Part shown: positions 43,945 to 58,116 of the stretch, in pieces | How the letters are laid out: every line of letters begins with the position of its first letter | Position numbering within the stretch: the first letter of the stretch is position 1 | Virus record (IMG/VR): IMGVR_UViG_3300038673_000220 | Span: 32,001-96,000 of that record | From: a virus | Lineage: Duplodnaviria; Caudoviricetes | Reading direction: 5' to 3' (one strand) | Length of the DNA: 64,000 nucleotides | Position numbers and translations under genes: made by a program | Notes under the pieces: generated by a model | Database searches by the model: none | The model's input: only the letters and a program-made list of their open reading frames with translations | What the model was told of the DNA's origin: nothing

Positions 43945-45444
43945 ATGATCATTAACAATGAAGGACAGCAGGTAAACCAGCCGCAAACTGACGCAGCACC
44001 GAAAGCATTTTCTCTGAGAGATGTATTGCAGCGATGCAATTCTCAGAATGGTTGGTCTGGTGTCGGTCAAGATTACATCAATTCAATCCGTACTCAAATC
44101 GAGGATCCCGCAGCTACTATTAAGGGATCTATGCATCATATCAGCGATACAGCTGTAGCGTTTAATCATGAAGATAACGGTATCGTTCTTGTTCATGAAG
44201 GCGACATGATGAATTACCAGGAGCTTATCAATGAGGTTAAGCTCTACAACGCAAAACAGGCATATTACAGTGCTTTTCCGAAAAAGAAGCTGTTGAACAT
44301 CGTCACTGTTAATCGGTTCATGTTCAACCGACCGATTCAGATGGCCTCTTATATCAATAATCTGTTCTTGTCTCAGAGCGATATGATTAAGAGCTTCAAT
44401 TATCAATCTTTCGGATCTCAGAATAGTATTGATATCAACACTGATATCGGAGTTGTTCGTCGATTCTTCGAGATGCATTCGACGACTCCAGTATTCTGTG
44501 GAAACTTCGGATTCGTAGCATCTCTTGCGGATAAGAATTCCAACCGCAGTGCTGGTTATAATCAACCGACACCGATGTTTGGTGTTTCTGGTTATGTTGA
44601 GTTTATCAGGAATGATTCTGATGGAACATTCACTCCTATCGTTCATGTAACTGATATTCTTTCGGTTCTTCCTACCAATAAAATCTTGGCTCTTGCTTTA
44701 CCGCTCATCGGTGGAGTAATCATTTCTCGCAATATCTGGAAACAGCCATTCTCAGCGATTGCGAAAGATAACAATATCAATATTGGTAATCTCATCATCG
44801 ATGCCAATAGCGGTAAGCCTTATGAAGTGAAATCTGACGCTGATTTCCGTCAGATGTTCCGTCAGTATATCGGAGATCCGCTTCTTTGTATTGATATCAA
44901 ATCTGGCGGAGCTGATATTCCAGGCTTGAATCGTTTGATTCGTCAGTCTGAGCATATTGCTGTATTCAATGAGATCCTCGAGTTCTTCGGTGAGGCTCCT
45001 TTGAACGCTTGTCCGCCGATTGCTCAGAACATCTTCCGAGAAATCATCGGTGCTTCTGATATCGCCAAGAACAATATGGTAGAACCCATTGACAGTCGTG
45101 ATATCAATTACCTCTACACGGTTGCAAAAGCCAAATACAACCCTCGTCTGGATTATCTCTTGGCTCGTAATGAGTATGATCCGGTTCGACGATTCGAGGC
45201 TATCAAAGAGATTTATGGTGACATCACACCTACTCACATCTCTGCAACTACCATGTTCCACAACGACTTCCTTGGTCGTATCGTCAACAGACTGAATGAA
45301 ACGATCAAAATCGATATCCCGAATGTTGGTGATACGATGATGATCAATATGAATGAGTTTGCATCTAAGGCGTATAAACCGAATATGCCTATGTTTGGTC
45401 AAGGACAGAGCTCATTCAATATCGGTGGTTGGTCCTCTTTCTAA
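43945..45444 (+). CDS. chmA: Chimallin (phage nuclear shell protein) candidate
   Basis: Immediately upstream of the nvRNAP beta' gene as phiKZ gp54-gp55; two promoter motifs; high-expression codon bias; Q-rich N-tail; F.P.V.VTDI...LALAL...W...F...NIG.L pattern. Mostly synteny-based. Confidence 0.6.
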   Translation: MIINNEGQQVNQPQTDAAPKAFSLRDVLQRCNSQNGWSGVGQDYINSIRTQIEDPAATIKGSMHHISDTAVAFNHEDNGIVLVHEGDMMNYQELINEVKLYNAKQAYYSAFPKKKLLNIVTVNRFMFNRPIQMASYINNLFLSQSDMIKSFNYQSFGSQNSIDINTDIGVVRRFFEMHSTTPVFCGNFGFVASLADKNSNRSAGYNQPTPMFGVSGYVEFIRNDSDGTFTPIVHVTDILSVLPTNKILALALPLIGGVIISRNIWKQPFSAIAKDNNINIGNLIIDANSGKPYEVKSDADFRQMFRQYIGDPLLCIDIKSGGADIPGLNRLIRQSEHIAVFNEILEFFGEAPLNACPPIAQNIFREIIGASDIAKNNMVEPIDSRDINYLYTVAKAKYNPRLDYLLARNEYDPVRRFEAIKEIYGDITPTHISATTMFHNDFLGRIVNRLNETIKIDIPNVGDTMMINMNEFASKAYKPNMPMFGQGQSSFNIGGWSSF

Positions 45445-45598: not shown

Positions 45599-45609
45599 AT
45601 ATATATTAT
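45599..45609 (+). promoter_or_regulatory. Phage promoter-like motif ATATATATTAT
   Basis: Exact motif upstream of the RNAP gene. Confidence 0.65.
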
Positions 45610-45622
45610 TTAAAAGAAATCA

Positions 45623-45654
45623 CCTGTTGATCCTGATGCTTCAGGATCAACAGG
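45623..45654 (+). promoter_or_regulatory. 14-bp hairpin in the RNAP subunit leader
   Basis: CCTGTTGATCCTGA-TGCT-TCAGGATCAACAGG between promoter motif and start codon; no T tract. Confidence 0.6.
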
Positions 45655-45685: not shown

Positions 45686-47072
45686 ATGCAGAAATGTTTT
45701 GTATTACCGAGTATCATTAACTTAGATGATCTCTTTAGTCGGACACCAAATACAACGGTGTTTAATGAGATCATGCTTGAATGTCAATCAAGCGAAGTTG
45801 TTGATATACTTTGTGATATTTCCAATGATAAAACTGATTCAGTAGCCTCATGTGAATGCGGTTGCCTTAAAGGAAATTATTACACTGGAACGAAATGTCG
45901 GGTATGTAATACTGTTTGCGAATCGAATCTCTTTGGTGAGATACGGAATGATTCGTGGTTAGCTATACCAAACTCTATCAAAGGAGTTTTGAATCCACAA
46001 GTTTTCAGAATCTTGGAAAGCTGGATGGGAAATACTACAGGTCATCAACCTATCATACGACAAATCCTCGATATGCAATTACCAGTAGAACCTATACCGA
46101 ATACGCCATTTTATTCTGGTATGGGATTTAATTGGTTTTATGATAATTTCAACGCTGTTATAACGTACTTTTTGACAAGCCATCCAACAGATACTGGTAG
46201 AAAAGCTGCTCCGAGTATAGAGCTCTTTCTGAAACAAGCTGGAGAAGCTATCTGGTGTCATTATTTACCAATATTAAGTAAGATCATCCAACCTATTACT
46301 CGTGTGAATAAAGATGTTCGTTATGCTGATACGGACATCAAGAATCTCATGAAGTCGATATTCACTTTAAGGAGCATCCTTTTAGCTGAAAAGACCATGA
46401 AGTTTTCTTATGATCACATCGATCGAAACTTCTTCAATGTGTATATTGAGTTCATCAATTACACGAAAAATATCTTGTATTCGAAGCTGCCAAGAAAACA
46501 GAGCATACTGAGGAAACATGTCTTTGGATCACGATCGCATTGTTCAGGACGAACTGTTGCGATCCCAATCGTTGAACCTCATGAGTCAGATAATATCCAT
46601 CTTCCTTGGCGATTAGGATTGATGATGTATCGTTATCACGTATTGGCAGTTTTGGTCAAGAAGTTTAGAATACCACCACTTAAAGCGTTTAATCGTGTTG
46701 TCAATGCTATCAACGTGTACGATTATGAGATCGATCGTATTATGCAGGAGTTGATCGCTGATTGTCCGTATAAAGGATTCCCTCTACTTGTGAATCGAAA
46801 TCCGTCATTGAAAATAGCGAGTATCCAATTATTATTCGCAACGAAGATCAAACCTGCATTAACTGAGAATCCGGTCAATTTACCAAATATTGAAGATATT
46901 AATGTCTCAGTGTTTGATCAGGATGATGAAGGATTCAGTAAGAGCTCATCGATCTTGGACATCAATGATGAAGATCAAATCGATCCAAAACTGAAGTATC
47001 TATTACGAAGCTATGTTGAAGATGATACAATAGCTGTTTCACCACTGATCGTTAAAGGTCCCAATCTTGACT
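45686..47072 (+). CDS. Non-virion RNA polymerase beta'-like subunit (phiKZ gp55-like), exon 1
   Basis: CECG...C..C zinc finger, RKHVFGSR, NRNPSL; ends GPNLD at the catalytic loop. Confidence 0.9.
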
Positions 47073-47541
47073 TAACACATAAGGTCCGCTATGAAGTAAT
47101 TCATAGATGAAAATCTCTCTAATTGCTGGAACCTACTAAAGCTGTCTCACTACAACGTGACTCGAAAGGGTGAGCGTGAATGTTTGAAAACGAGACGGAT
47201 ATATGGGGAACCGTGGATTCTAAGAATCCCTTTAGCAGCCAAGATCCTAAAGTTATTGGGTATTGATTAATTGAATGAAGATACTCAGGTGGATTAGTTA
47301 ACCAATAAATAAGGATAAGGTCCAACGACTATGTGATTAATGGGTAATTCAATAACAATGTATCTATGGGTTATTGAGTCTACATACGCGCCATTAAGTA
47401 TACAGTACTTACCAAGTGGGTAGGGAAATGGGAGACTGCCTCAGGAGATGAGGTAGAAGAGATAGTCTGGACATCTAGGGAAAACCTAGAGCTGCAGGTA
47501 ATGCTGCGGGGATCAACTAACGACTGATCCTGAACATAACG
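47073..47541 (+). ncRNA. Group I intron (IA-like), 469 nt, no internal sense ORF
   Basis: P1 GACU/GGUC with U-G at the 5' splice site; P AATTGCTGGAA, Q AGCAGCCAAG, R CAACGACTA, S AAGAGATAGTCT; terminal G 47541. Splicing restores NLDFDGDE. Confidence 0.92.
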
Positions 47542-47729
47542 TTGATGGGGACGAGATCAATATCATTCCGTTGTATGAGATGGATGAAGTCAAAGAGTTT
47601 GAGCGTCTTTATCCAGCTCACCGTTTCATTTCTGATAACGATCTCAAAATCGATGGTGGAGATGTTGTCATTTCTTCTCAACAGATTTGTATGCTGGCCT
47701 CATGGATGAATGATCCTGAATACAGCTAA
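47542..47729 (+). CDS. Non-virion RNA polymerase beta'-like subunit, exon 2 (absent from ORF track)
   Basis: (F)DGDEINIIPLYEMDE...DPEYS*; spliced product is 524 aa. Confidence 0.9.
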
Positions 47730-47731
47730 AT

Positions 47732-47774
47732 ATCAAGTGGTAGGCATAACAACCTACCACTTGATTTATTTTTT
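47732..47774 (+). terminator. Intrinsic terminator, 13-bp stem
   Basis: ATCAAGTGGTAGG-N8-CCTACCACTTGAT plus T tract. Confidence 0.85.
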
Positions 47775-47776
47775 AA

Positions 47777-47787
47777 ATATATATTAT
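47777..47787 (+). promoter_or_regulatory. Phage promoter-like motif ATATATATTAT
   Basis: Exact motif upstream of an ORF-free region. Confidence 0.65.
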
Positions 47788-47791
47788 ACTA

Positions 47792-48337
47792 GGAGTTGTA
47801 GAAAAATAAAACACCTAGTTATTATATAAAGAAAAGAGCTTTCCATAATGAATCGTAGCGTTATCAATTGGGTACATTGCAAAACGGCGGGGCATTCTGG
47901 GAAGCTTGGATTTAATAGTTACGACACACGATTGATTTACTCTATTAAATCACGTTATCACCTACTCATTAAACGATTATTTGCCGAAATCGCATCGACC
48001 AATGAATGTCGATGTTCATAGTCCATTGCCAATTAAATTCCACTATTGGCGCATAAATCGACTGATTTCTTATTGTTGATCAGATTGTGTGGTAATGATT
48101 GAGCATCTTAGAAAGTCGTAATAACAGATGACTCTTTGAACGAATTTGTACTGGACAAGTGCTCTGACAAATTCAAATCGTTATGACACCGTATGTTGAA
48201 ACTTCGGAGACGGTATGAACCTTCGGGAAATATCAACATTTCATATCGATAACCCGGTTTGAAATCCAGATAGAGTCGGGATTTATTATCAATCAATTCT
48301 ACTGATCCTGAATAATCGGGATCAGTGGTAAATTTTT
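47792..48337 (+). ncRNA. Candidate structured non-coding RNA
   Basis: Promoter motif upstream, terminator-like hairpin at 48300-48337, no sense ORF of 60 aa or more, about nine consecutive stems. Confidence 0.45.
48300..48337 (+). terminator. Terminator-like hairpin
   Basis: TACTGATCCTGA-ATAA-TCGGGATCAGTG followed shortly by TTTTT. Confidence 0.65.
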
Positions 48338-48353
48338 ATCGAGGGTAAATTTC

Positions 48354-48865
48354 GTGTTTAAGATAATAATAAGTAAGAATACTGGATTAACATGTGTTGA
48401 GATAAATCAACCATCACAGGAGGTGTATGATAAAATCATAAAGATATGTCATTCATACGATGTATCTGACGAGAAAATAAGTATAATAAATCGTGGTGTC
48501 GCGAGTTTTTTCAAAGTAAAAAAGAAGGAGGGTATGATTGGATACTTATAGCGTTTTGGAGTGAGGATGTAGCAAAAGCTTTCTTAGATGTTGTATCAAG
48601 CGAGATAAGCGATTTAAGTATTGATGAAGATAATTCTAAGCTTTATTCATTGTCATATAATCAAGTTATGACTATATCGAAGGAATTGTCAAAGATATTC
48701 GGAATAGATGAATCGAGGATGGATTATGAACTTCTCAGATCCATAACTTGCGTAAATAAAGATAATGATTCATCTATCAAAATGATCCAAGAATCCAAAA
48801 ATTCCAAAACTTTCAATAAATGCTTATTCTGTAATAATAAATGTAATAAGAGTAAGTGTCCTTAA
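48354..48865 (+). CDS. Hypothetical protein probably joined by a -1 frameshift (ORFs 48354-48551 and 48650-48865); Cys-rich C-terminus
   Basis: In-frame A_AAA_AAG at 48518-48524; -1 frame open from there to 48865. Confidence 0.55.
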
Positions 48866-48883
48866 AATCTAGGGTATAAAATT

Positions 48884-49663
48884 ATGCTACAATTCATTTG
48901 TAAAAAAGACGACGAGGTAGGACTTTATATTCAAGTTAATCACACGAATCATCTTGATAAGTTATTCGTAAGAAAATTCGCTTTGGATGGATTCTCAAAC
49001 ATCCTATCCGAAGAAGAGAATGCAAAATCAGTTGAACAAGTGAATAGCGTATTCTCTTTAATGAGCGAAGCTGAACAGGATTATATATTCAAGCTGTATG
49101 ATGAAATCAATATCACTCTTCTTCAAAATTATCGGCAGGATGAGATCAAAGATACATTGAATTCTATAGGGAATCGTATATTAAAAGATATCGAACGAAT
49201 GAAATTGGTCGATTACTGTAATCAACACCCTTTTAATAAATTCCCTATCCAAATCAACAGTATTAAGATAAACTTCGTTTCATTGATTCTTATCATAGGA
49301 ATATTTCTACCGGTTTTAATCATGGTGAAATCTTTCAATAAACGATATGTTAAGAATCAGACAATGAATTCGTTGGCAGTCAATCGTGTTCTGAAACCAA
49401 CCATTGATACATATTTCAGTAAAGAAAGGATGTTTATCAAAAACCTTATCATCGATGCGATCAAAAATGATTATCCTGAAGCTAAGGATATTATTATCAT
49501 CGATAAGAAATTCAAAAACATTTGCACTTTTAGTGAAATCATTCTGTGTAATATCATTTCAGATATATTCACTAAAGCACCTTGTAACAATGAAGTAGTA
49601 TTTGAAAGCATCAACCAATTCTTCATAGCTTATATTCGGAATTATATCCGAGAAAATAAGTAA
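48884..49663 (+). CDS. Hypothetical protein resembling the N-terminal half of the gp68-like subunit
   Basis: Colinear similarity by eye to ORF 56500 (see finding). Confidence 0.55.
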   Translation: MLQFICKKDDEVGLYIQVNHTNHLDKLFVRKFALDGFSNILSEEENAKSVEQVNSVFSLMSEAEQDYIFKLYDEINITLLQNYRQDEIKDTLNSIGNRILKDIERMKLVDYCNQHPFNKFPIQINSIKINFVSLILIIGIFLPVLIMVKSFNKRYVKNQTMNSLAVNRVLKPTIDTYFSKERMFIKNLIIDAIKNDYPEAKDIIIIDKKFKNICTFSEIILCNIISDIFTKAPCNNEVVFESINQFFIAYIRNYIRENK

Positions 49664-49719
49664 ATACATAACCGAACAATGATTTAGATATTAATATCAA
49701 AAATCAAAGGAGATCTTTC

Positions 49720-50331
49720 ATGATGGGTTCAGTTATGCCAGCTATAACTCTAAATGCTTGTCCAGGTTTGTCAAGTTTTATAGGAACAGCTGGTACAGAC
49801 GCATTGTTAGCTGATATAAATCGAGATCTGAATAACAGTCAGTTCTTTGGATCTGTAGATGATATCATGTCTGTTGGGAGGCAGATGTTTATTGATAATA
49901 ACATTGTACCGATAAGGGCTATTGAAAATAGCGTTAAGAATCTTGTTGGTATGTTTGAGTATAACGATGTTTATCGAGAGATAACGTCTGAAGAAGATCT
50001 TCAAAGCATTCCTTCTTGTATGCATGATAGCATACTTCGATACAAACCTATCAAGAAGCTTTTTGATGAAGCTCGTATCTTTGGATTCGGATGGGACTAT
50101 GTTCCTGAAGAAGATTGTTATGGTCGGTTAATCAAAAATGGTTTTGTTGAAGATGTTGAAGCTATTATGGATGATAAAGGTGAATTCGAGTTGGAATACA
50201 CTTTCCAATCAGATGATCCAGATTTATCATTCGAAGAACTTGAATGCATCAAGGTGACTAGAGATTATCTTGATTACATCCTCAACGAGACAGACATCGA
50301 TCCAACCGATTACGGAAATAGAAGGTCATAA
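49720..50331 (+). CDS. Conserved phiKZ-like hypothetical protein
   Basis: SD AGGAG; lies between beta' and SbcD blocks; C-terminal DPT. Confidence 0.65.
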   Translation: MMGSVMPAITLNACPGLSSFIGTAGTDALLADINRDLNNSQFFGSVDDIMSVGRQMFIDNNIVPIRAIENSVKNLVGMFEYNDVYREITSEEDLQSIPSCMHDSILRYKPIKKLFDEARIFGFGWDYVPEEDCYGRLIKNGFVEDVEAIMDDKGEFELEYTFQSDDPDLSFEELECIKVTRDYLDYILNETDIDPTDYGNRRS

Positions 50332-50339
50332 AAGATACT

Positions 50340-50382
50340 CCATGAGCTGTTATTATTAACAGCTCATGGGACAATATTTTTT
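50340..50382 (+). terminator. Terminator, 12-bp stem
   Basis: CCATGAGCTGTT-N6-AACAGCTCATGG then T tract. Confidence 0.75.
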
Positions 50383-56499: not shown

Positions 56500-58116
56500 T
56501 TGATAATGTCTGTTTCGTACGATTTTCTTAAAAGATATATAGACCCAGATACTGGACAGGTTAATTTCATTGAGATCGATTATGACCCTGAAAAGATTCG
56601 AATTGAAAAGCGTTTGTTCAACATCAGGACTTATGATGTTTTAAGGAAGAACAAATGGGGTAATGTTGATCCAGTTAATCGATTCATCCGTGAGACATTG
56701 GATGAATCTGAATATGACCAACTTGTCCAGCTCTTCGTTAAATGTAAAAGAGAATTGGTTGGAGCTGAAACTGGAGAGAGTATTGTCGACGCAGTTGTTA
56801 AGATCGACAATTATATCTATAAAACCTTTAAGAAATTAGGTATTTCTGCAAGGGTTTTCGATTTCGTTTGTCGGGATCAGTCTATATCTCTTCCTGATTT
56901 TACTAACATAGGTACACGAGATCAGGATACTCCAGAGAAAACTTTCTATGAGGATGATTACCATCTGATCAATACGATCGTTATCATAGCAAAGATGCTT
57001 TGTCCTCTATTTGGTGACATCATCAACCGAATCAAATTAGCAAATGATTCGTATAAAAGTATGAAAGAGATCGTAGCATTTGGTATCATTAATAATATCC
57101 TTCGTGAAGATTTTGAAGTTATTACGAAGAAGCTCATGAATTATATCGGAAAGATGATCGATAGATTCTTATCTGATGATCCGATGATAACTTTCAATGG
57201 TATCACGGCAACAAGCCTGACGAATTACATGTTCGCTAAGATCATCGTTAAGAATTTTACGAATCTTAATTTGTATGAGCCTGATGGAAACGTTATTCGA
57301 TCAGTTTGTGTGACATTAAAGCGGTCTATTGAAAATGAAACAAAAGGTGCTACAAAGCTCATGTATCGTGAGCGTTTTGTACCTGAGACAAGCGATGATG
57401 ATCAGAATACATCGCTTATGGAAAACTCTATCAATACGGTGAATGAACCAGTAGAAACACCCGTAATAGTTCATGAGGCGATTGAGTATTTCATTAGTGA
57501 TTTTCTTGAAAAGAATTCTGTTGATAAAGAGTTCTTTGAAGAACTTGTTCGGTATTATAAAGTAACGATCCTTCAACCAACACCTGTGAATGAGTTGATC
57601 GTTGCTTTGTTTGTGGCTGATCCAATAGGTTCTGCGTATTGTGTAAAATACATGGATATGGATATGATGATTCGTATCATTGTCATCATCCAGATCTACG
57701 CAATGAATATGGGGTTCAAATCGATCATCCCTATCTTGTCACTGATACCAACGAATACTACAAAAACGGAAATAAACGATGCTGATAATCGCATCATTCT
57801 GAATAACGGTCGTGGTAATAATCCGAATATGATTAATTACTTCATTCATTTGAATGAGTGTGTTGGTCATATTAAGGATTGGAACGGTTTCAATTTTACT
57901 GAATATATGAAGATAATCATGATGTATGTCATTGAGAATATTCATATATACAACGTTGCTCCAGGTTTACTAAATATATCTGATACTGGAACAACATACA
58001 AAGGAGACGACGACACACTCAAATACGATGAAAACATCATAGCCGAATTACATAGCTTTATGTACCATCTTCTTAAATTATCCAACGAGGATCGGAGCTT
58101 TGTTAATCAATATTAG
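56500..58116 (+). CDS. Non-virion RNAP promoter-specificity subunit (phiKZ gp68-like)
   Basis: 538 aa; T.EKTFY..DY..I......K...P.FG and D..NTS..E motifs; third gene after sbcD. Confidence 0.7.
   Translation: MIMSVSYDFLKRYIDPDTGQVNFIEIDYDPEKIRIEKRLFNIRTYDVLRKNKWGNVDPVNRFIRETLDESEYDQLVQLFVKCKRELVGAETGESIVDAVVKIDNYIYKTFKKLGISARVFDFVCRDQSISLPDFTNIGTRDQDTPEKTFYEDDYHLINTIVIIAKMLCPLFGDIINRIKLANDSYKSMKEIVAFGIINNILREDFEVITKKLMNYIGKMIDRFLSDDPMITFNGITATSLTNYMFAKIIVKNFTNLNLYEPDGNVIRSVCVTLKRSIENETKGATKLMYRERFVPETSDDDQNTSLMENSINTVNEPVETPVIVHEAIEYFISDFLEKNSVDKEFFEELVRYYKVTILQPTPVNELIVALFVADPIGSAYCVKYMDMDMMIRIIVIIQIYAMNMGFKSIIPILSLIPTNTTKTEINDADNRIILNNGRGNNPNMINYFIHLNECVGHIKDWNGFNFTEYMKIIMMYVIENIHIYNVAPGLLNISDTGTTYKGDDDTLKYDENIIAELHSFMYHLLKLSNEDRSFVNQY

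What the first reader, a model, noticed from the sequence alone, without database searches (positions are those of the whole stretch)
47777..48337. Candidate novel ~530-nt early ncRNA made of serial hairpins
Seen: in a gene-dense window this unit has its own promoter motif and terminator-like hairpin but no sense ORF. Consecutive stems: 47837-47845/47898-47906, 47909-47918/47942-47951 (10 bp perfect), 47993-47999/48008-48014, 48028-48033/48045-48050, 48062-48066/48079-48083, 48104-48108/48126-48130, 48142-48149/48167-48174, 48193-48199/48233-48239 (enclosing two CTTCGG) and 48253-48256/48277-48280. It does not match tRNA, tmRNA, RNase P or CRISPR patterns that I can see. Inference: a decoy or sponge RNA, a processed small-RNA array, a nucleus-associated RNA, or a DNA origin. 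Short stems can arise by chance.
Basis: partly seen in the sequence, partly recalled or inferred. Interest (0 to 1): 0.75.

Follow-up and report, generated by a model that had tools for sequence, protein, structure and literature searches.

The report
Conserved gene-free unit in jumbo phage
A 0.55-kb stretch of an uncultivated giant phage has a phage promoter and a strong terminator but no gene, and related phages keep it almost unchanged, so it probably makes a non-coding RNA or long leader of unknown job; its supposed chain of hairpins folds no better than chance.

Summary
The unit is real. A perfect copy of the phage's recurrent promoter motif (47775-47789) is followed by about 540 nt with no credible ORF, ending at a 13-bp terminator hairpin (48299-48328). 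It lies in the second-largest gene-free gap of a genome that is 93% coding.

The "serial hairpins" claim is only partly confirmed. The whole-unit fold z of -3.6 comes from the terminator. Without it the interior scores z = -1.2, with 13 of 100 shuffles folding as well. Only three or four hairpins are solid.

Protein coding is very unlikely. The small ORFs have the codon usage of spurious ORFs. The 57-aa ORF has no homologue among 1.84 billion representatives. Related strains differ by 1-nt indels inside that ORF.

Relatives from two other studies (wastewater, landfill) keep most of the unit at 87-93% nucleotide identity. In these relatives 43% of third codon positions in the neighbouring RNAP gene differ. 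A 61-nt middle segment is replaced.

The unit is absent from a relative at 61% protein identity and from an isolated phage. It matches no Rfam family.

Best reading (about 0.5): a lineage-specific early non-coding RNA that also serves as 5' leader of three promoter-less genes. There is no covariation or expression evidence. This scan has noted similar ORF-free early units in other jumbo phages, but none resembles this one in sequence.

The parts
47732..47765 (+). Intrinsic terminator of the upstream RNAP beta' gene (stop codon at 47729). Its T-run (47766-47774) merges into the T-rich part of the promoter.
   Evidence: 13 pairs followed by a T-run; windows holding it reach z -3.3 to -6.5.
47775..47789 (+). 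Promoter-like motif AAATATATATTATAC, preceded by a T-run. It is a perfect member of the phage's recurrent motif family. The transcript is inferred to start near 47790.
   Evidence: 15 exact core copies on the + strand, mostly 25-140 nt before gene starts; the same motif lies upstream of the RNAP gene in the distant relative L084; phiKZ early promoters are described as an AT-rich extended -10 with an upstream T-rich element (analogy only).
47790..47817 (+). Small 5' hairpin at the inferred RNA start.
   Evidence: closing helix pairing probability 0.91.
47836..47907 (+). Long irregular hairpin with about 22 pairs in four segments. It is the best-supported internal structure and it buries the AUG of the 57-aa ORF.
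   Evidence: -24.6 kcal/mol, z -3.56; pairing probability 0.93-0.98; 47831-47999 is 92.9% identical in run X6.
47848..48021 (+). 57-aa ORF, rejected as a gene.
   Evidence: codon score 0.02, against coding 0.35 +/- 0.14 and spurious ORFs -0.02; no SD; no word-sharing protein; 0 hits in 1.84 billion representatives; a 1-nt deletion at 47971 is present in runs X3, X5 and X6 but not in X4.
47992..48015 (+). 8-bp hairpin. In a relative the loop is rewritten and the 3' arm has one G-C to G-U change.
   Evidence: z -3.3; pairing probability 0.97. table 7: the X6 loose end behind 47999 has about half of the loop letters changed plus one inserted, and a C-to-T in the 3' arm that keeps the pair.
48027..48051 (+). 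6-7-bp hairpin. The 1-nt indel at 48035 falls in its loop.
48073..48133 (+). Hypervariable segment. In relatives it is replaced by diverged sequence of similar length.
   Evidence: table 5: the X3 contig joins 48072 to 48134 with 66 other letters in place of 61. Contigs of X4, X5 and X6 also stop or resume alignment at 48072 or 48134 (table 8).
48092..48184 (+). Predicted three-way domain (helices 48092-99/48177-84, 48114-19/48128-33, 48143-47/48169-73). Thermodynamic support is weak.
   Evidence: pairing probability 0.71-0.87; component stems z -0.9 to -1.4.
48193..48239 (+). Hairpin enclosing two copies of TGAA(A/C)CTTCGG, 19 nt apart.
   Evidence: repeat families D1 and D7; z -1.3; the doubled 11-mer appears in none of 1000 shuffles, but the motif was chosen after the fact.
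48215..48262 (+). The only SD-supported small ORF in the unit (15 aa, GGAG then 5 nt then ATG). Its status is unknown.
48299..48336 (+). Terminator: a 13-bp hairpin (48299-48328), then TAAA, then a T5 run. This is the inferred 3' end of the RNA, or an attenuator before the next gene.
   Evidence: -20 kcal/mol, z -7.4; pairing probability 0.98.
48354..50331 (+). Context: three genes (48354-48865 with a -1 slip site, 48884-49663, 49720-50331) with no promoter motif of their own, ending at terminator 50339-50370. The unit would be their leader if the terminator is read through.

Best explanation
This is a non-protein-coding transcription unit of a divergent phiKZ-like jumbo phage that encodes its own multisubunit RNA polymerase.

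A perfect copy of the phage's recurrent promoter motif (T-run plus AAATATATATTATAC, 47766-47789) starts an RNA near 47790. The RNA runs about 540 nt without a credible ORF to a 13-bp hairpin and U-run (48299-48336).

I think most transcripts end there. That gives a stand-alone RNA made of a few solid hairpins (47836-47907, 47992-48015, 48027-48051) joined by weakly structured linkers whose sequence is conserved. A fraction reads through and becomes the 5' leader of the three promoter-less genes at 48354-50331. In other words, it is a leader-derived early ncRNA and attenuator, like the premature-termination sRNAs seen in phiKZ-type phages but twice their size limit.

Shown: the motif family, the terminator, the absence of coding signal, nucleotide-level conservation, and restriction to one lineage.

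Inferred: that it is transcribed, its two ends, the read-through, and any action of the released RNA.
For: 1. Promoter. The motif is a perfect copy of a family with 15 exact + strand copies. These normally lie 25-140 nt before genes, including the RNAP beta' gene itself; here the next plausible gene is 565 nt away. The motif recurs upstream of the RNAP gene in the distant relative L084.

2. Terminator. It is a 13-bp, -20 kcal/mol hairpin with a T-run, on the + strand only.

3. Not coding.
- Codon scores of the three longest ORFs (0.02, -0.06, 0.04) match spurious ORFs (mean -0.02), not genes (0.35 +/- 0.14).
- There are no Pfam or PHROG families.
- No protein shares words with the 57-aa ORF among 5.8 billion, and there are no hits among 1.84 billion representatives.
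- No translated or nucleotide similarity to 240 related or other fetched loci, or to the rest of the genome.

4. Conservation, from contigs of four runs in two independent studies (table 8).
- 47831-47999 is 92.9% identical, 47703-48072 is 90.5%, 48134-48392 is 89.2%.
- Most coding flanks are 82-85% identical.
- 33 of 76 third codon positions (43%) differ in the RNAP gene next door.
- Neutral DNA at that distance would not have aligned at the 80% cut-off, and the 61-nt segment 48073-48133 indeed did not.

5. Pattern of change fits RNA.
- The three 1-nt indels (47971, 48035, 48297) lie in short homopolymers where predicted pairing probability is 0.1-0.3.
- In hairpin 47992-48015 the loop is rewritten, while the 3' arm changes only G-C to G-U (table 7).
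- In hairpin 48062-48083 the loop differs and the 3' arm ATCAG is kept.

6. Leader role.
- The next gene starts 26 nt after the terminator stem.
- It and the two genes after it have no promoter motif before the next terminator at 50339-50370.
- In relative L083 a terminator with no promoter also sits directly between the RNAP gene and the next gene, so leaky terminators inside operons seem normal in this clade.
- In phage 201phi2-1, 8 of 11 sRNAs arise by premature termination in 5' UTRs (PMC11512511).
Against: - The interior folds no better than shuffles (z -1.19).
- The substitution table was cut off before the unit, so no compensatory (two-sided) base-pair change could be seen.
- There is no evidence of transcription.
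- The unit is absent from the 61% relative L083, where 36 nt separate the RNAP stop from the next ORF. It is also absent from Xanthomonas phage LucasX. It is therefore dispensable for the phage type.
- Identity to relatives falls with distance from the group I intron site: exon 2 96.5%, 5' half 91-93%, 3' part 87-89%, later genes about 83%. One coding piece (48753-48960) is also 89.9% identical. Part of the high identity could therefore come from recombination or homing co-conversion rather than selection.
- The U-run is separated from the terminator stem by UAAA, so termination efficiency is uncertain.
Confidence: 0.5

Rival explanations
1. No function of its own. The stretch is filler or the relic of an accessory cassette (promoter plus terminator left behind after its gene was lost) in a variable island. 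It looks conserved only because this neighbourhood was recently exchanged between strains, for example by exon co-conversion during homing of the adjacent group I intron.
For: - Identity declines steadily with distance downstream of the intron.
- The intron is mobile in this clade: absent in L083, present in L082, and carrying 869 extra letters in the X3 relative.
- The island between the RNAP gene and the phrog_3254 gene has entirely different content in L083.
- The interior fold is at chance level.
- A 12-nt direct repeat, TGATCCTGAATA, sits at 47711 and 48303, bracketing the unit.
Against: - A continuous conversion tract would not leave a replaced 61-nt segment (48073-48133) between two well-kept blocks (table 5).
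- The coding sequence directly upstream of the intron (46886-47097, 87.7%) is less conserved than non-coding sequence 170-540 nt downstream of it (90.5%).
- A decayed gene should show stops and indels at the neutral rate, but only three 1-nt indels are listed across the unit.
- TGATCCTGA is over-represented genome-wide (11 copies against about 1 expected), partly as codons, so the 12-nt repeat is weak evidence.
Confidence: 0.2
2. A purely trans-acting stand-alone RNA (decoy, protein-binding or guide-like), in which two conserved scaffolds flank a fast-evolving 60-nt specificity module. The downstream genes would be served by other promoters.
For: - The conserved / hypervariable / conserved layout is seen in all four runs.
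- The terminator is strong.
- The unit sits in an accessory island, where host-takeover and counter-defence genes usually lie (the generalisation is from my own knowledge).
- Sequence is conserved even in linkers predicted to be unpaired.
Against: - No repeated binding motif: GGA occurs 8 times against 9.3 expected, and the most frequent 6-mer count is ordinary.
- No pairing with phage translation-start regions beyond what shuffles give.
- No partner gene (RT, nuclease or recombinase) is next to it.
- The host is unknown, so host targets cannot be searched.
Confidence: 0.13
3. A DNA-level element: a protein-binding region, a recombination cassette of the promoter/stem-loop type, or a replication origin.
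For: - Nucleotide conservation without strong RNA structure.
- Terminator-plus-promoter and promoter-plus-hairpin modules recur, for example at 45599-45654.
- CGTTAT occurs three times, and none of 1000 shuffles reached that count for this particular 6-mer.
Against: - Cumulative GC skew rises straight through 47-48 kb with no turning point.
- GC is 36%, like the rest of the genome, so there is no AT-rich unwinding block.
- No iteron array. A 6-mer seen three times is ordinary once all 6-mers are considered: 98.6% of shuffles have at least one.
Confidence: 0.1
4. One or more small proteins are made: the 57-aa ORF at 47848-48021, or the 15-aa ORF at 48215-48262.
For: - The 15-aa ORF has GGAG, a 5-nt spacer, then ATG.
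- With the relatives' deletion at 47971, the 57-aa ORF would run on to 76 aa.
Against: - Codon usage is in the spurious class.
- The 57-aa ORF has no SD, and its AUG is buried in the strongest hairpin.
- The frame differs between strains after codon 41.
- No homologue exists anywhere.
Confidence: 0.07

Closest known systems
Premature-termination (5'UTR-derived) and intergenic sRNAs of Pseudomonas jumbo phages 201phi2-1 and phiKZ (ONT-cappable-seq, PMC11512511)
   Same: A phage-promoter start is followed by an intrinsic terminator before the next gene. There is no ORF. The phage is a phiKZ-type phage with its own RNAP, and the function is unknown.
   Different: Those sRNAs were defined as <250 nt and by sequencing reads. 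This unit is about 540 nt, has no expression data, has no sequence similarity to them, and occurs only in a narrow uncultivated lineage.
Large ornate RNAs GOLLD, ROOL and OLE (Rfam; cryo-EM in PMC12286853)
   Same: Size class of 500-800 nt; often carried by phages; function unknown.
   Different: There is no Rfam match even at E <= 10 on the unit alone. Those RNAs are intricately folded with abundant covariation, whereas this interior folds at chance level.
Cis-acting antitermination or attenuation leaders (lambda nut, HK022 put) - from my own knowledge, not tested
   Same: A leader RNA lies between a phage promoter and a terminator that must be passed to express downstream genes.
   Different: Those elements are 30-70 nt with defined stem-loops and act on host RNAP. 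No such motif was found here, and the polymerase would be the phage's own.
PeSL (promoter-early stem-loop) cassettes of T4-like phages - recalled from the literature and named in scan note e1-285585; not tested
   Same: Early-promoter plus stem-loop modules bracket accessory DNA in variable genome regions.
   Different: PeSLs flank ORFs and belong to T4-like phages that use host RNAP. Here the bracketed DNA has no ORF.
CsrB/RsmZ-type protein-sponge RNAs
   Same: A several-hundred-nt RNA made of separate hairpins.
   Different: The defining repeated GGA loop motifs are not enriched: 8 observed against 9.3 in shuffles, and A.GGA occurs 0 times against 3.0.

Membership tests
Any Rfam 15 family (incl. 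GOLLD, ROOL, OLE, 6S, RNase P, tmRNA, group I/II introns, riboswitches) | Covariance-model score at or near the family's gathering threshold | tested here: not met
   inside 47730-48360 the best scores are 15-19 bits, against thresholds of 60-88; no tRNA or tmRNA.
Jumbo-phage premature-termination sRNA (201phi2-1 / phiKZ type) | Phage promoter motif at the 5' end | tested here: met
   a perfect member of a 15-copy motif family. Timing and polymerase are only inferred.
Jumbo-phage premature-termination sRNA (201phi2-1 / phiKZ type) | Intrinsic terminator before the next gene start | tested here: met
   a 13-bp hairpin plus T-run that ends 26 nt before the GTG at 48354.
Jumbo-phage premature-termination sRNA (201phi2-1 / phiKZ type) | Length under 250 nt (the filter used in PMC11512511) | tested here: not met
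   About 540 nt from 47790 to 48336.
Jumbo-phage premature-termination sRNA (201phi2-1 / phiKZ type) | Read enrichment with a defined TSS and TTS | not testable with these tools
   No raw-read RNA data could be laid on the unit. All runs laid were DNA contigs.
Structured ncRNA in general | Folding energy beyond dinucleotide shuffles | tested here: not met
   Interior z -1.19. Only the terminator and 3-4 hairpins picked after the fact stand out.
Structured ncRNA in general | Compensatory base-pair changes in relatives | tested here: inconclusive
   One search printed substitutions only up to 46759. From loose ends there is one G-C to G-U change and two rewritten loops with the visible (3') arms kept. 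No two-sided change was seen.
Protein-coding gene or decayed gene | Open frame with the genome's codon usage, homologues, and frame kept in relatives | tested here: not met
   and the indels.
CsrB/RsmZ-type sponge | Many GGA motifs in hairpin loops | tested here: not met
Replication origin | GC-skew turning point, AT-rich block, iterons | tested here: not met

The most novel reading that the evidence does not exclude
A lineage-specific, trans-acting early RNA of about 540 nt from a nucleus-forming-type jumbo phage. Two conserved scaffolds would hold a rapidly evolving 60-nt module (48073-48133) that sets specificity, for example as a decoy or guide against a host defence or host RNA. That would be an RNA-based accessory 'gene' in a variable island.
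Probability: 0.12. Interest if true: 0.7.

Novelty: new member of a known kind. Interest (0 to 1): 0.38.

Why it matters
Giant phages of the phiKZ type separate transcription from translation, and their RNA biology is barely mapped. Only a handful of small RNAs are known, all under 250 nt and all without a function.

A 0.5-kb gene-free unit kept under nucleotide-level constraint, beside the phage RNA polymerase gene and ahead of promoter-less genes, would add a longer class of early non-coding transcript. It would also give a concrete place to test how phage polymerases deal with terminators inside operons.

As it stands it is a candidate only. The phage is uncultivated, the host is unknown, and neither expression nor covariation has been shown.

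Tried and rejected
The contigs of the close relatives P0001-P0012 (60-96% protein identity) could therefore not be fetched. This is why there is no alignment and no covariation test.
- Scans for relatives:
  - Viral contigs gave only relatives at 31% identity or less.
  - Genome contigs gave none.
  - Three pattern scans with hairpin arms gave only chance hits, with no blastn similarity to the unit.
  - The genome search cannot draw relatives for a virus record.
- blastn of the unit against 50,697 phage records found no match.
- Sequencing runs: no RNA holder was listed. This says nothing about expression.
- Read laying was run on 3 kb, so its substitution table was cut at 46759, before the unit. 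Only per-contig counts, indels, joints and 30-letter loose ends could be used.
- Antisense targets among 130-odd phage translation-start regions: best duplex -33.8 kcal/mol, against -35.7 +/- 2.2 for shuffled RNA. Nothing stands out.
- Sponge motifs, repeated 6-mers, tandem modules and origin features were all negative.
- A link between the TGATCCTGAA shared by the intron's 3' end, the RNAP gene's end and the unit's terminator was considered. The 9-mer is over-represented genome-wide, partly as Asp-Pro-Glu codons, so it was dropped as evidence.
- A literature search found no described jumbo-phage ncRNA of this size or sequence.

Full report
**Setting.** The window is bases 32001-96000 of a 149-kb IMG/VR contig, rated 54% complete, from a bioreactor metagenome. 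The gene upstream of the finding (45686-47110) is the N-terminal beta' piece of a phage multisubunit RNA polymerase: phrog_2987, E = 5e-67. It is 23-30% identical to isolated phiKZ-like jumbo phages. The phage is therefore a distant, uncultivated relative of the nucleus-forming jumbo phages. The chimallin identity of the gene before it was not confirmed (no PHROG hit), so I do not rely on it.

**Anatomy.**
- The RNAP gene is interrupted by a group I intron (Rfam 47064-47491, 48.4 bits, E = 3e-10).
- Its second exon ends at 47729 and is followed by a terminator hairpin at 47732-47765.
- The terminator's T-run runs into AAATATATATTATAC (47775-47789).
- Then come about 510 nt whose longest ORFs are 57 aa and 32 aa on the + strand and 62 aa on the - strand.
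- A second terminator follows: a 13-bp hairpin at 48299-48328, then TAAA, then T5.
- 26 nt later is the GTG of the next gene (48354).
- With a simple codon-usage gene caller the contig is 92.8% coding, with a median gap of 62 nt. The gap 47730-48353 is the second largest of 102.

**The promoter motif is real.**
- The core ATATATAT(T/C)AT, usually preceded by TTT..A(A/G), occurs 15 times exactly on the + strand and twice on the - strand.
- Almost all copies are intergenic and 25-140 nt before a gene start. They include copies before the RNAP gene (45599) and before the long genes at 56500, about 59250 and about 64510.
- The copy at 47777 is a perfect match but lies 565 nt from the next plausible gene.
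- blastn of the unit against the rest of the genome and against distant relatives finds only this motif. It finds three copies in L084, one of them just before that phage's RNAP gene.
- phiKZ early promoters are described as an AT-rich extended -10 with an upstream T-rich element (PMC8244752). The resemblance is by description only, so 'early' is an inference.

**Is the hairpin chain more than chance?** Mostly not.
- The 551-nt unit folds at z = -3.57 on the + strand and -2.12 on the - strand. Cutting off the terminator leaves z = -1.19, and 13 of 100 shuffles fold as well.
- In 150-nt sliding windows, only those containing one of the two terminators reach about z = -3 or lower. Interior windows range from +1.7 to -2.2.
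- Folded singly, four stems do well: 47836-47907 (z -3.6), 47992-48015 (-3.3), 47909-47951 (-2.7) and 48027-48051 (-2.2). These windows were chosen because stems had been seen there.
- The five stems between 48058 and 48292 score -0.9 to -1.4.
- In the ensemble the confident helices (p > 0.7) are 47790/47817, the four-segment 47836/47907 hairpin, 47992/48015, 48028/48050, a possible three-way domain at 48092-48184, 48245/48258 and the terminator.

**It is not a protein gene.**
- The per-codon log-likelihood score, trained on 71 ORFs of at least 250 aa, is 0.35 +/- 0.14 for in-frame gene chunks and -0.02 +/- 0.16 for 329 short ORFs nested out of frame. The unit's ORFs score 0.02, -0.06 and 0.04.
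- Only one start codon in the unit has a decent SD: a 15-aa ORF at 48215.
- Pfam and PHROGs give nothing.
- No protein in the 5.8-billion set shares even three words with the 57-aa ORF, so no gene caller predicted it here or in relatives.
- phmmer against 1.84 billion representatives gives no hit.
- Six-frame pieces of the unit find nothing in 240 fetched loci or in the rest of the genome.

**Relatives.** The RNAP protein has many metagenomic relatives at 50-96% identity.

*First substitute: fetched loci of more distant relatives.*
- JGI contig L083 (61% protein identity) has the same order: large upstream gene, RNAP beta', then further on a homologue of the 49720 gene.
- In L083 the RNAP gene has no intron, and its terminator is followed after 36 nt by the next ORF. 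There is no promoter motif and no gene-free unit.
- The genes between the RNAP gene and the 49720 homologue are also unrelated to those in the window. The unit therefore sits in a variable island.
- Xanthomonas phage LucasX has the split RNAP gene but no such unit.

*Second substitute: Logan contigs laid on the window.*
- Four runs from two studies other than the probable source (wastewater 2019, landfill 2022) were laid on 46500-49500 at 80% or more likeness.
- A 3271-nt contig of X3 is collinear from the intron through the unit into the 259-aa gene. The unit and its neighbours are therefore shared by that lineage.

Identities per piece:

| Region | Coordinates | Identity |
|---|---|---|
| RNAP exon 1 | 46502-47143 and sub-pieces | 82.9-85.4% (87.7% next to the intron) |
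| Intron end + exon 2 | 47456-47633 | 96.5% |
| Unit, 5' half | 47703-48072 | 90.5% |
| Unit, 5' half (sub-piece) | 47831-47999 | 92.9% |
| Unit, 3' part | 48134-48392 | 89.2% |
| Unit, 3' part (sub-piece) | 48134-48270 | 86.9% |
| Later genes | pieces between 48753 and 49491 | 82.2-82.8% (one piece, 48753-48960, 89.9%) |

- In the part of the substitution table that was printed (46532-46759), 33 of 40 differences are at third codon positions. That is 43% of the third positions in that span.
- Most of the unit has thus changed three to six times less than nearly neutral sites.
- The exception is 48073-48133. The X3 contig bridges it with 66 unrelated letters in place of 61, and contigs of X4, X5 and X6 also stop or resume alignment at 48072 or 48134 (tables 5 and 8).

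**Kind of change.**
- Three 1-nt deletions are listed inside the unit: 47971 in AAA, 48035 in AAA and 48297 in TT. The first is present in X3, X5 and X6 but absent in X4.
- That deletion shifts the 57-aa ORF after codon 41.
- All three fall where predicted pairing probability is 0.1-0.3.
- The X6 loose end behind 47999 shows that in hairpin 47992-48015 about half of the loop letters differ and one is added. The 3' arm carries a single C-to-T that turns a G-C pair into G-U.
- The X4 loose end behind 48072 shows a rewritten loop in hairpin 48062-48083, with the arm ATCAG kept.
- This fits RNA-level constraint, but it rests on a handful of positions. No two-sided compensatory change was seen.

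**A caution on the conservation argument.** Identity falls with distance from the intron insertion site, and the intron is mobile in this clade: absent in L083, present in L082 at the same site (72.8 bits), and carrying 869 extra letters in X3. Exon co-conversion during homing is well known for T4 introns (my own knowledge) and could raise identity near the site. Two observations argue against that being the whole story:
- The replaced 61-nt segment sits between two conserved blocks.
- The coding sequence immediately upstream of the intron is less conserved than the non-coding sequence 170-540 nt downstream.

I give the 'no function' rival 0.2.

**Mechanism.**
- The three genes after the unit (48354-50331) have no promoter motif before the next terminator at 50339-50370. 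They must be reached by read-through from 47777 and/or from the RNAP promoter at 45599.
- L083 shows the same logic, with a promoter-less gene directly behind a terminator.
- The simplest model is a promoter whose transcripts mostly stop at 48328, releasing a ~540-nt RNA. The rest continue as mRNA with a long leader.
- This is what cappable-seq found for 8 of 11 sRNAs in 201phi2-1 (PMC11512511), though those are under 250 nt.
- Why the leader's sequence is kept is unknown. A binding site for a phage factor that sets read-through, or a trans role for the released RNA, would both fit.
- The tests I could run for specific trans roles were negative: sponge motifs, pairing to phage start regions and repeated modules.

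**Verdict.**
- The observation of a gene-free, promoter-to-terminator unit is confirmed. The claim of unusual folding is not.
- A functional non-coding transcript is the best reading (about 0.5, plus 0.13 for a purely trans-acting version).
- It matches no known RNA family and is confined to a narrow lineage.
- Word searches of this scan's notes show similar ORF-free early units reported in at least 26 other jumbo-phage genomes. None resembles this one in sequence. As a kind it is not new.
- Interest is moderate to low until an alignment of the relatives or an RNA read-out exists.

Noticed in passing
47064-47541: A group I intron with no ORF splits the RNAP beta' gene inside the catalytic NLDFDGDE motif. 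The Rfam score is 48.4 bits, just under the threshold of 50. The 26-protein alignment reads ...GPNLDFDGDE... straight across the junction. Relative L082 has an intron at the same place (72.8 bits), and L083 has none. Phage LucasX has a 442-nt gap followed by a 52-aa exon-2 ORF at the same place.
   Followed up: partly
47259-47419: In the X3 relative, 159 nt of the intron are replaced by 869 other letters. In X3, X4 and X6 another contig replaces 225 nt with 112 letters (table 5). The 869-nt insert is the right size for an intron-borne homing endonuclease gene. Its sequence was not seen.
   Followed up: no
G000:C1:125960-126371 (outside the window): A second gene-free gap of 412 nt whose sequence resembles the first intron, with the same core elements by eye. 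Several wastewater and landfill contigs that matched the intron continue into the flank of this copy. It is probably a second group I intron in another gene.
   Followed up: no
48504-48551: GTA AAA AAG, the slippery site A_AAA_AAG, lies in frame at the end of the 65-aa ORF 48354-48551. The -1 frame stays open to 48865 with no start of its own. This is a likely programmed -1 frameshift or an assembly error in an A-run. Relatives cover the site in one contig.
   Followed up: partly
47730-49719 versus L083:7594-10259: The stretch between the RNAP beta' gene and the phrog_3254 gene is a variable island. The window has the gene-free unit, the frameshift gene and a 259-aa gene. L083 has ORFs of 99, 269, 78, 72 and 239 aa, and those compared show no BLASTP similarity to the window's genes.
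   Followed up: partly
48884-49663 and 56500-58116: A first-reader note calls the 259-aa gene a half-length copy of a gp68-like subunit encoded at 56500. BLASTP between the two gives only E = 0.27 over 19 residues, so the paralogy is not supported at this sensitivity.
   Followed up: partly
45599-45654: The promoter motif before the RNAP gene is followed at once by a 14-bp perfect palindromic hairpin in the 5' UTR (45623-45654). The hairpin scores as a terminator on the - strand. This promoter-plus-stem-loop module resembles PeSL cassettes.
   Followed up: no
47525, 47711, 48303 and 8 other sites: TGATCCTGA occurs 11 times in the contig against about 1 expected. Three copies lie within 800 nt: at the intron's 3' end, at the end of the RNAP gene, and in the 5' arm of the unit's terminator. 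TGATCCTGAATA is repeated exactly at 47711 and 48303, bracketing the unit.
   Followed up: partly
43945-45444: The 499-aa gene upstream of the RNAP gene was flagged by another note as a compact chimallin. It has no PHROG family at E <= 0.001. Its position matches phiKZ gp54-gp55 only by recollection.
   Followed up: no
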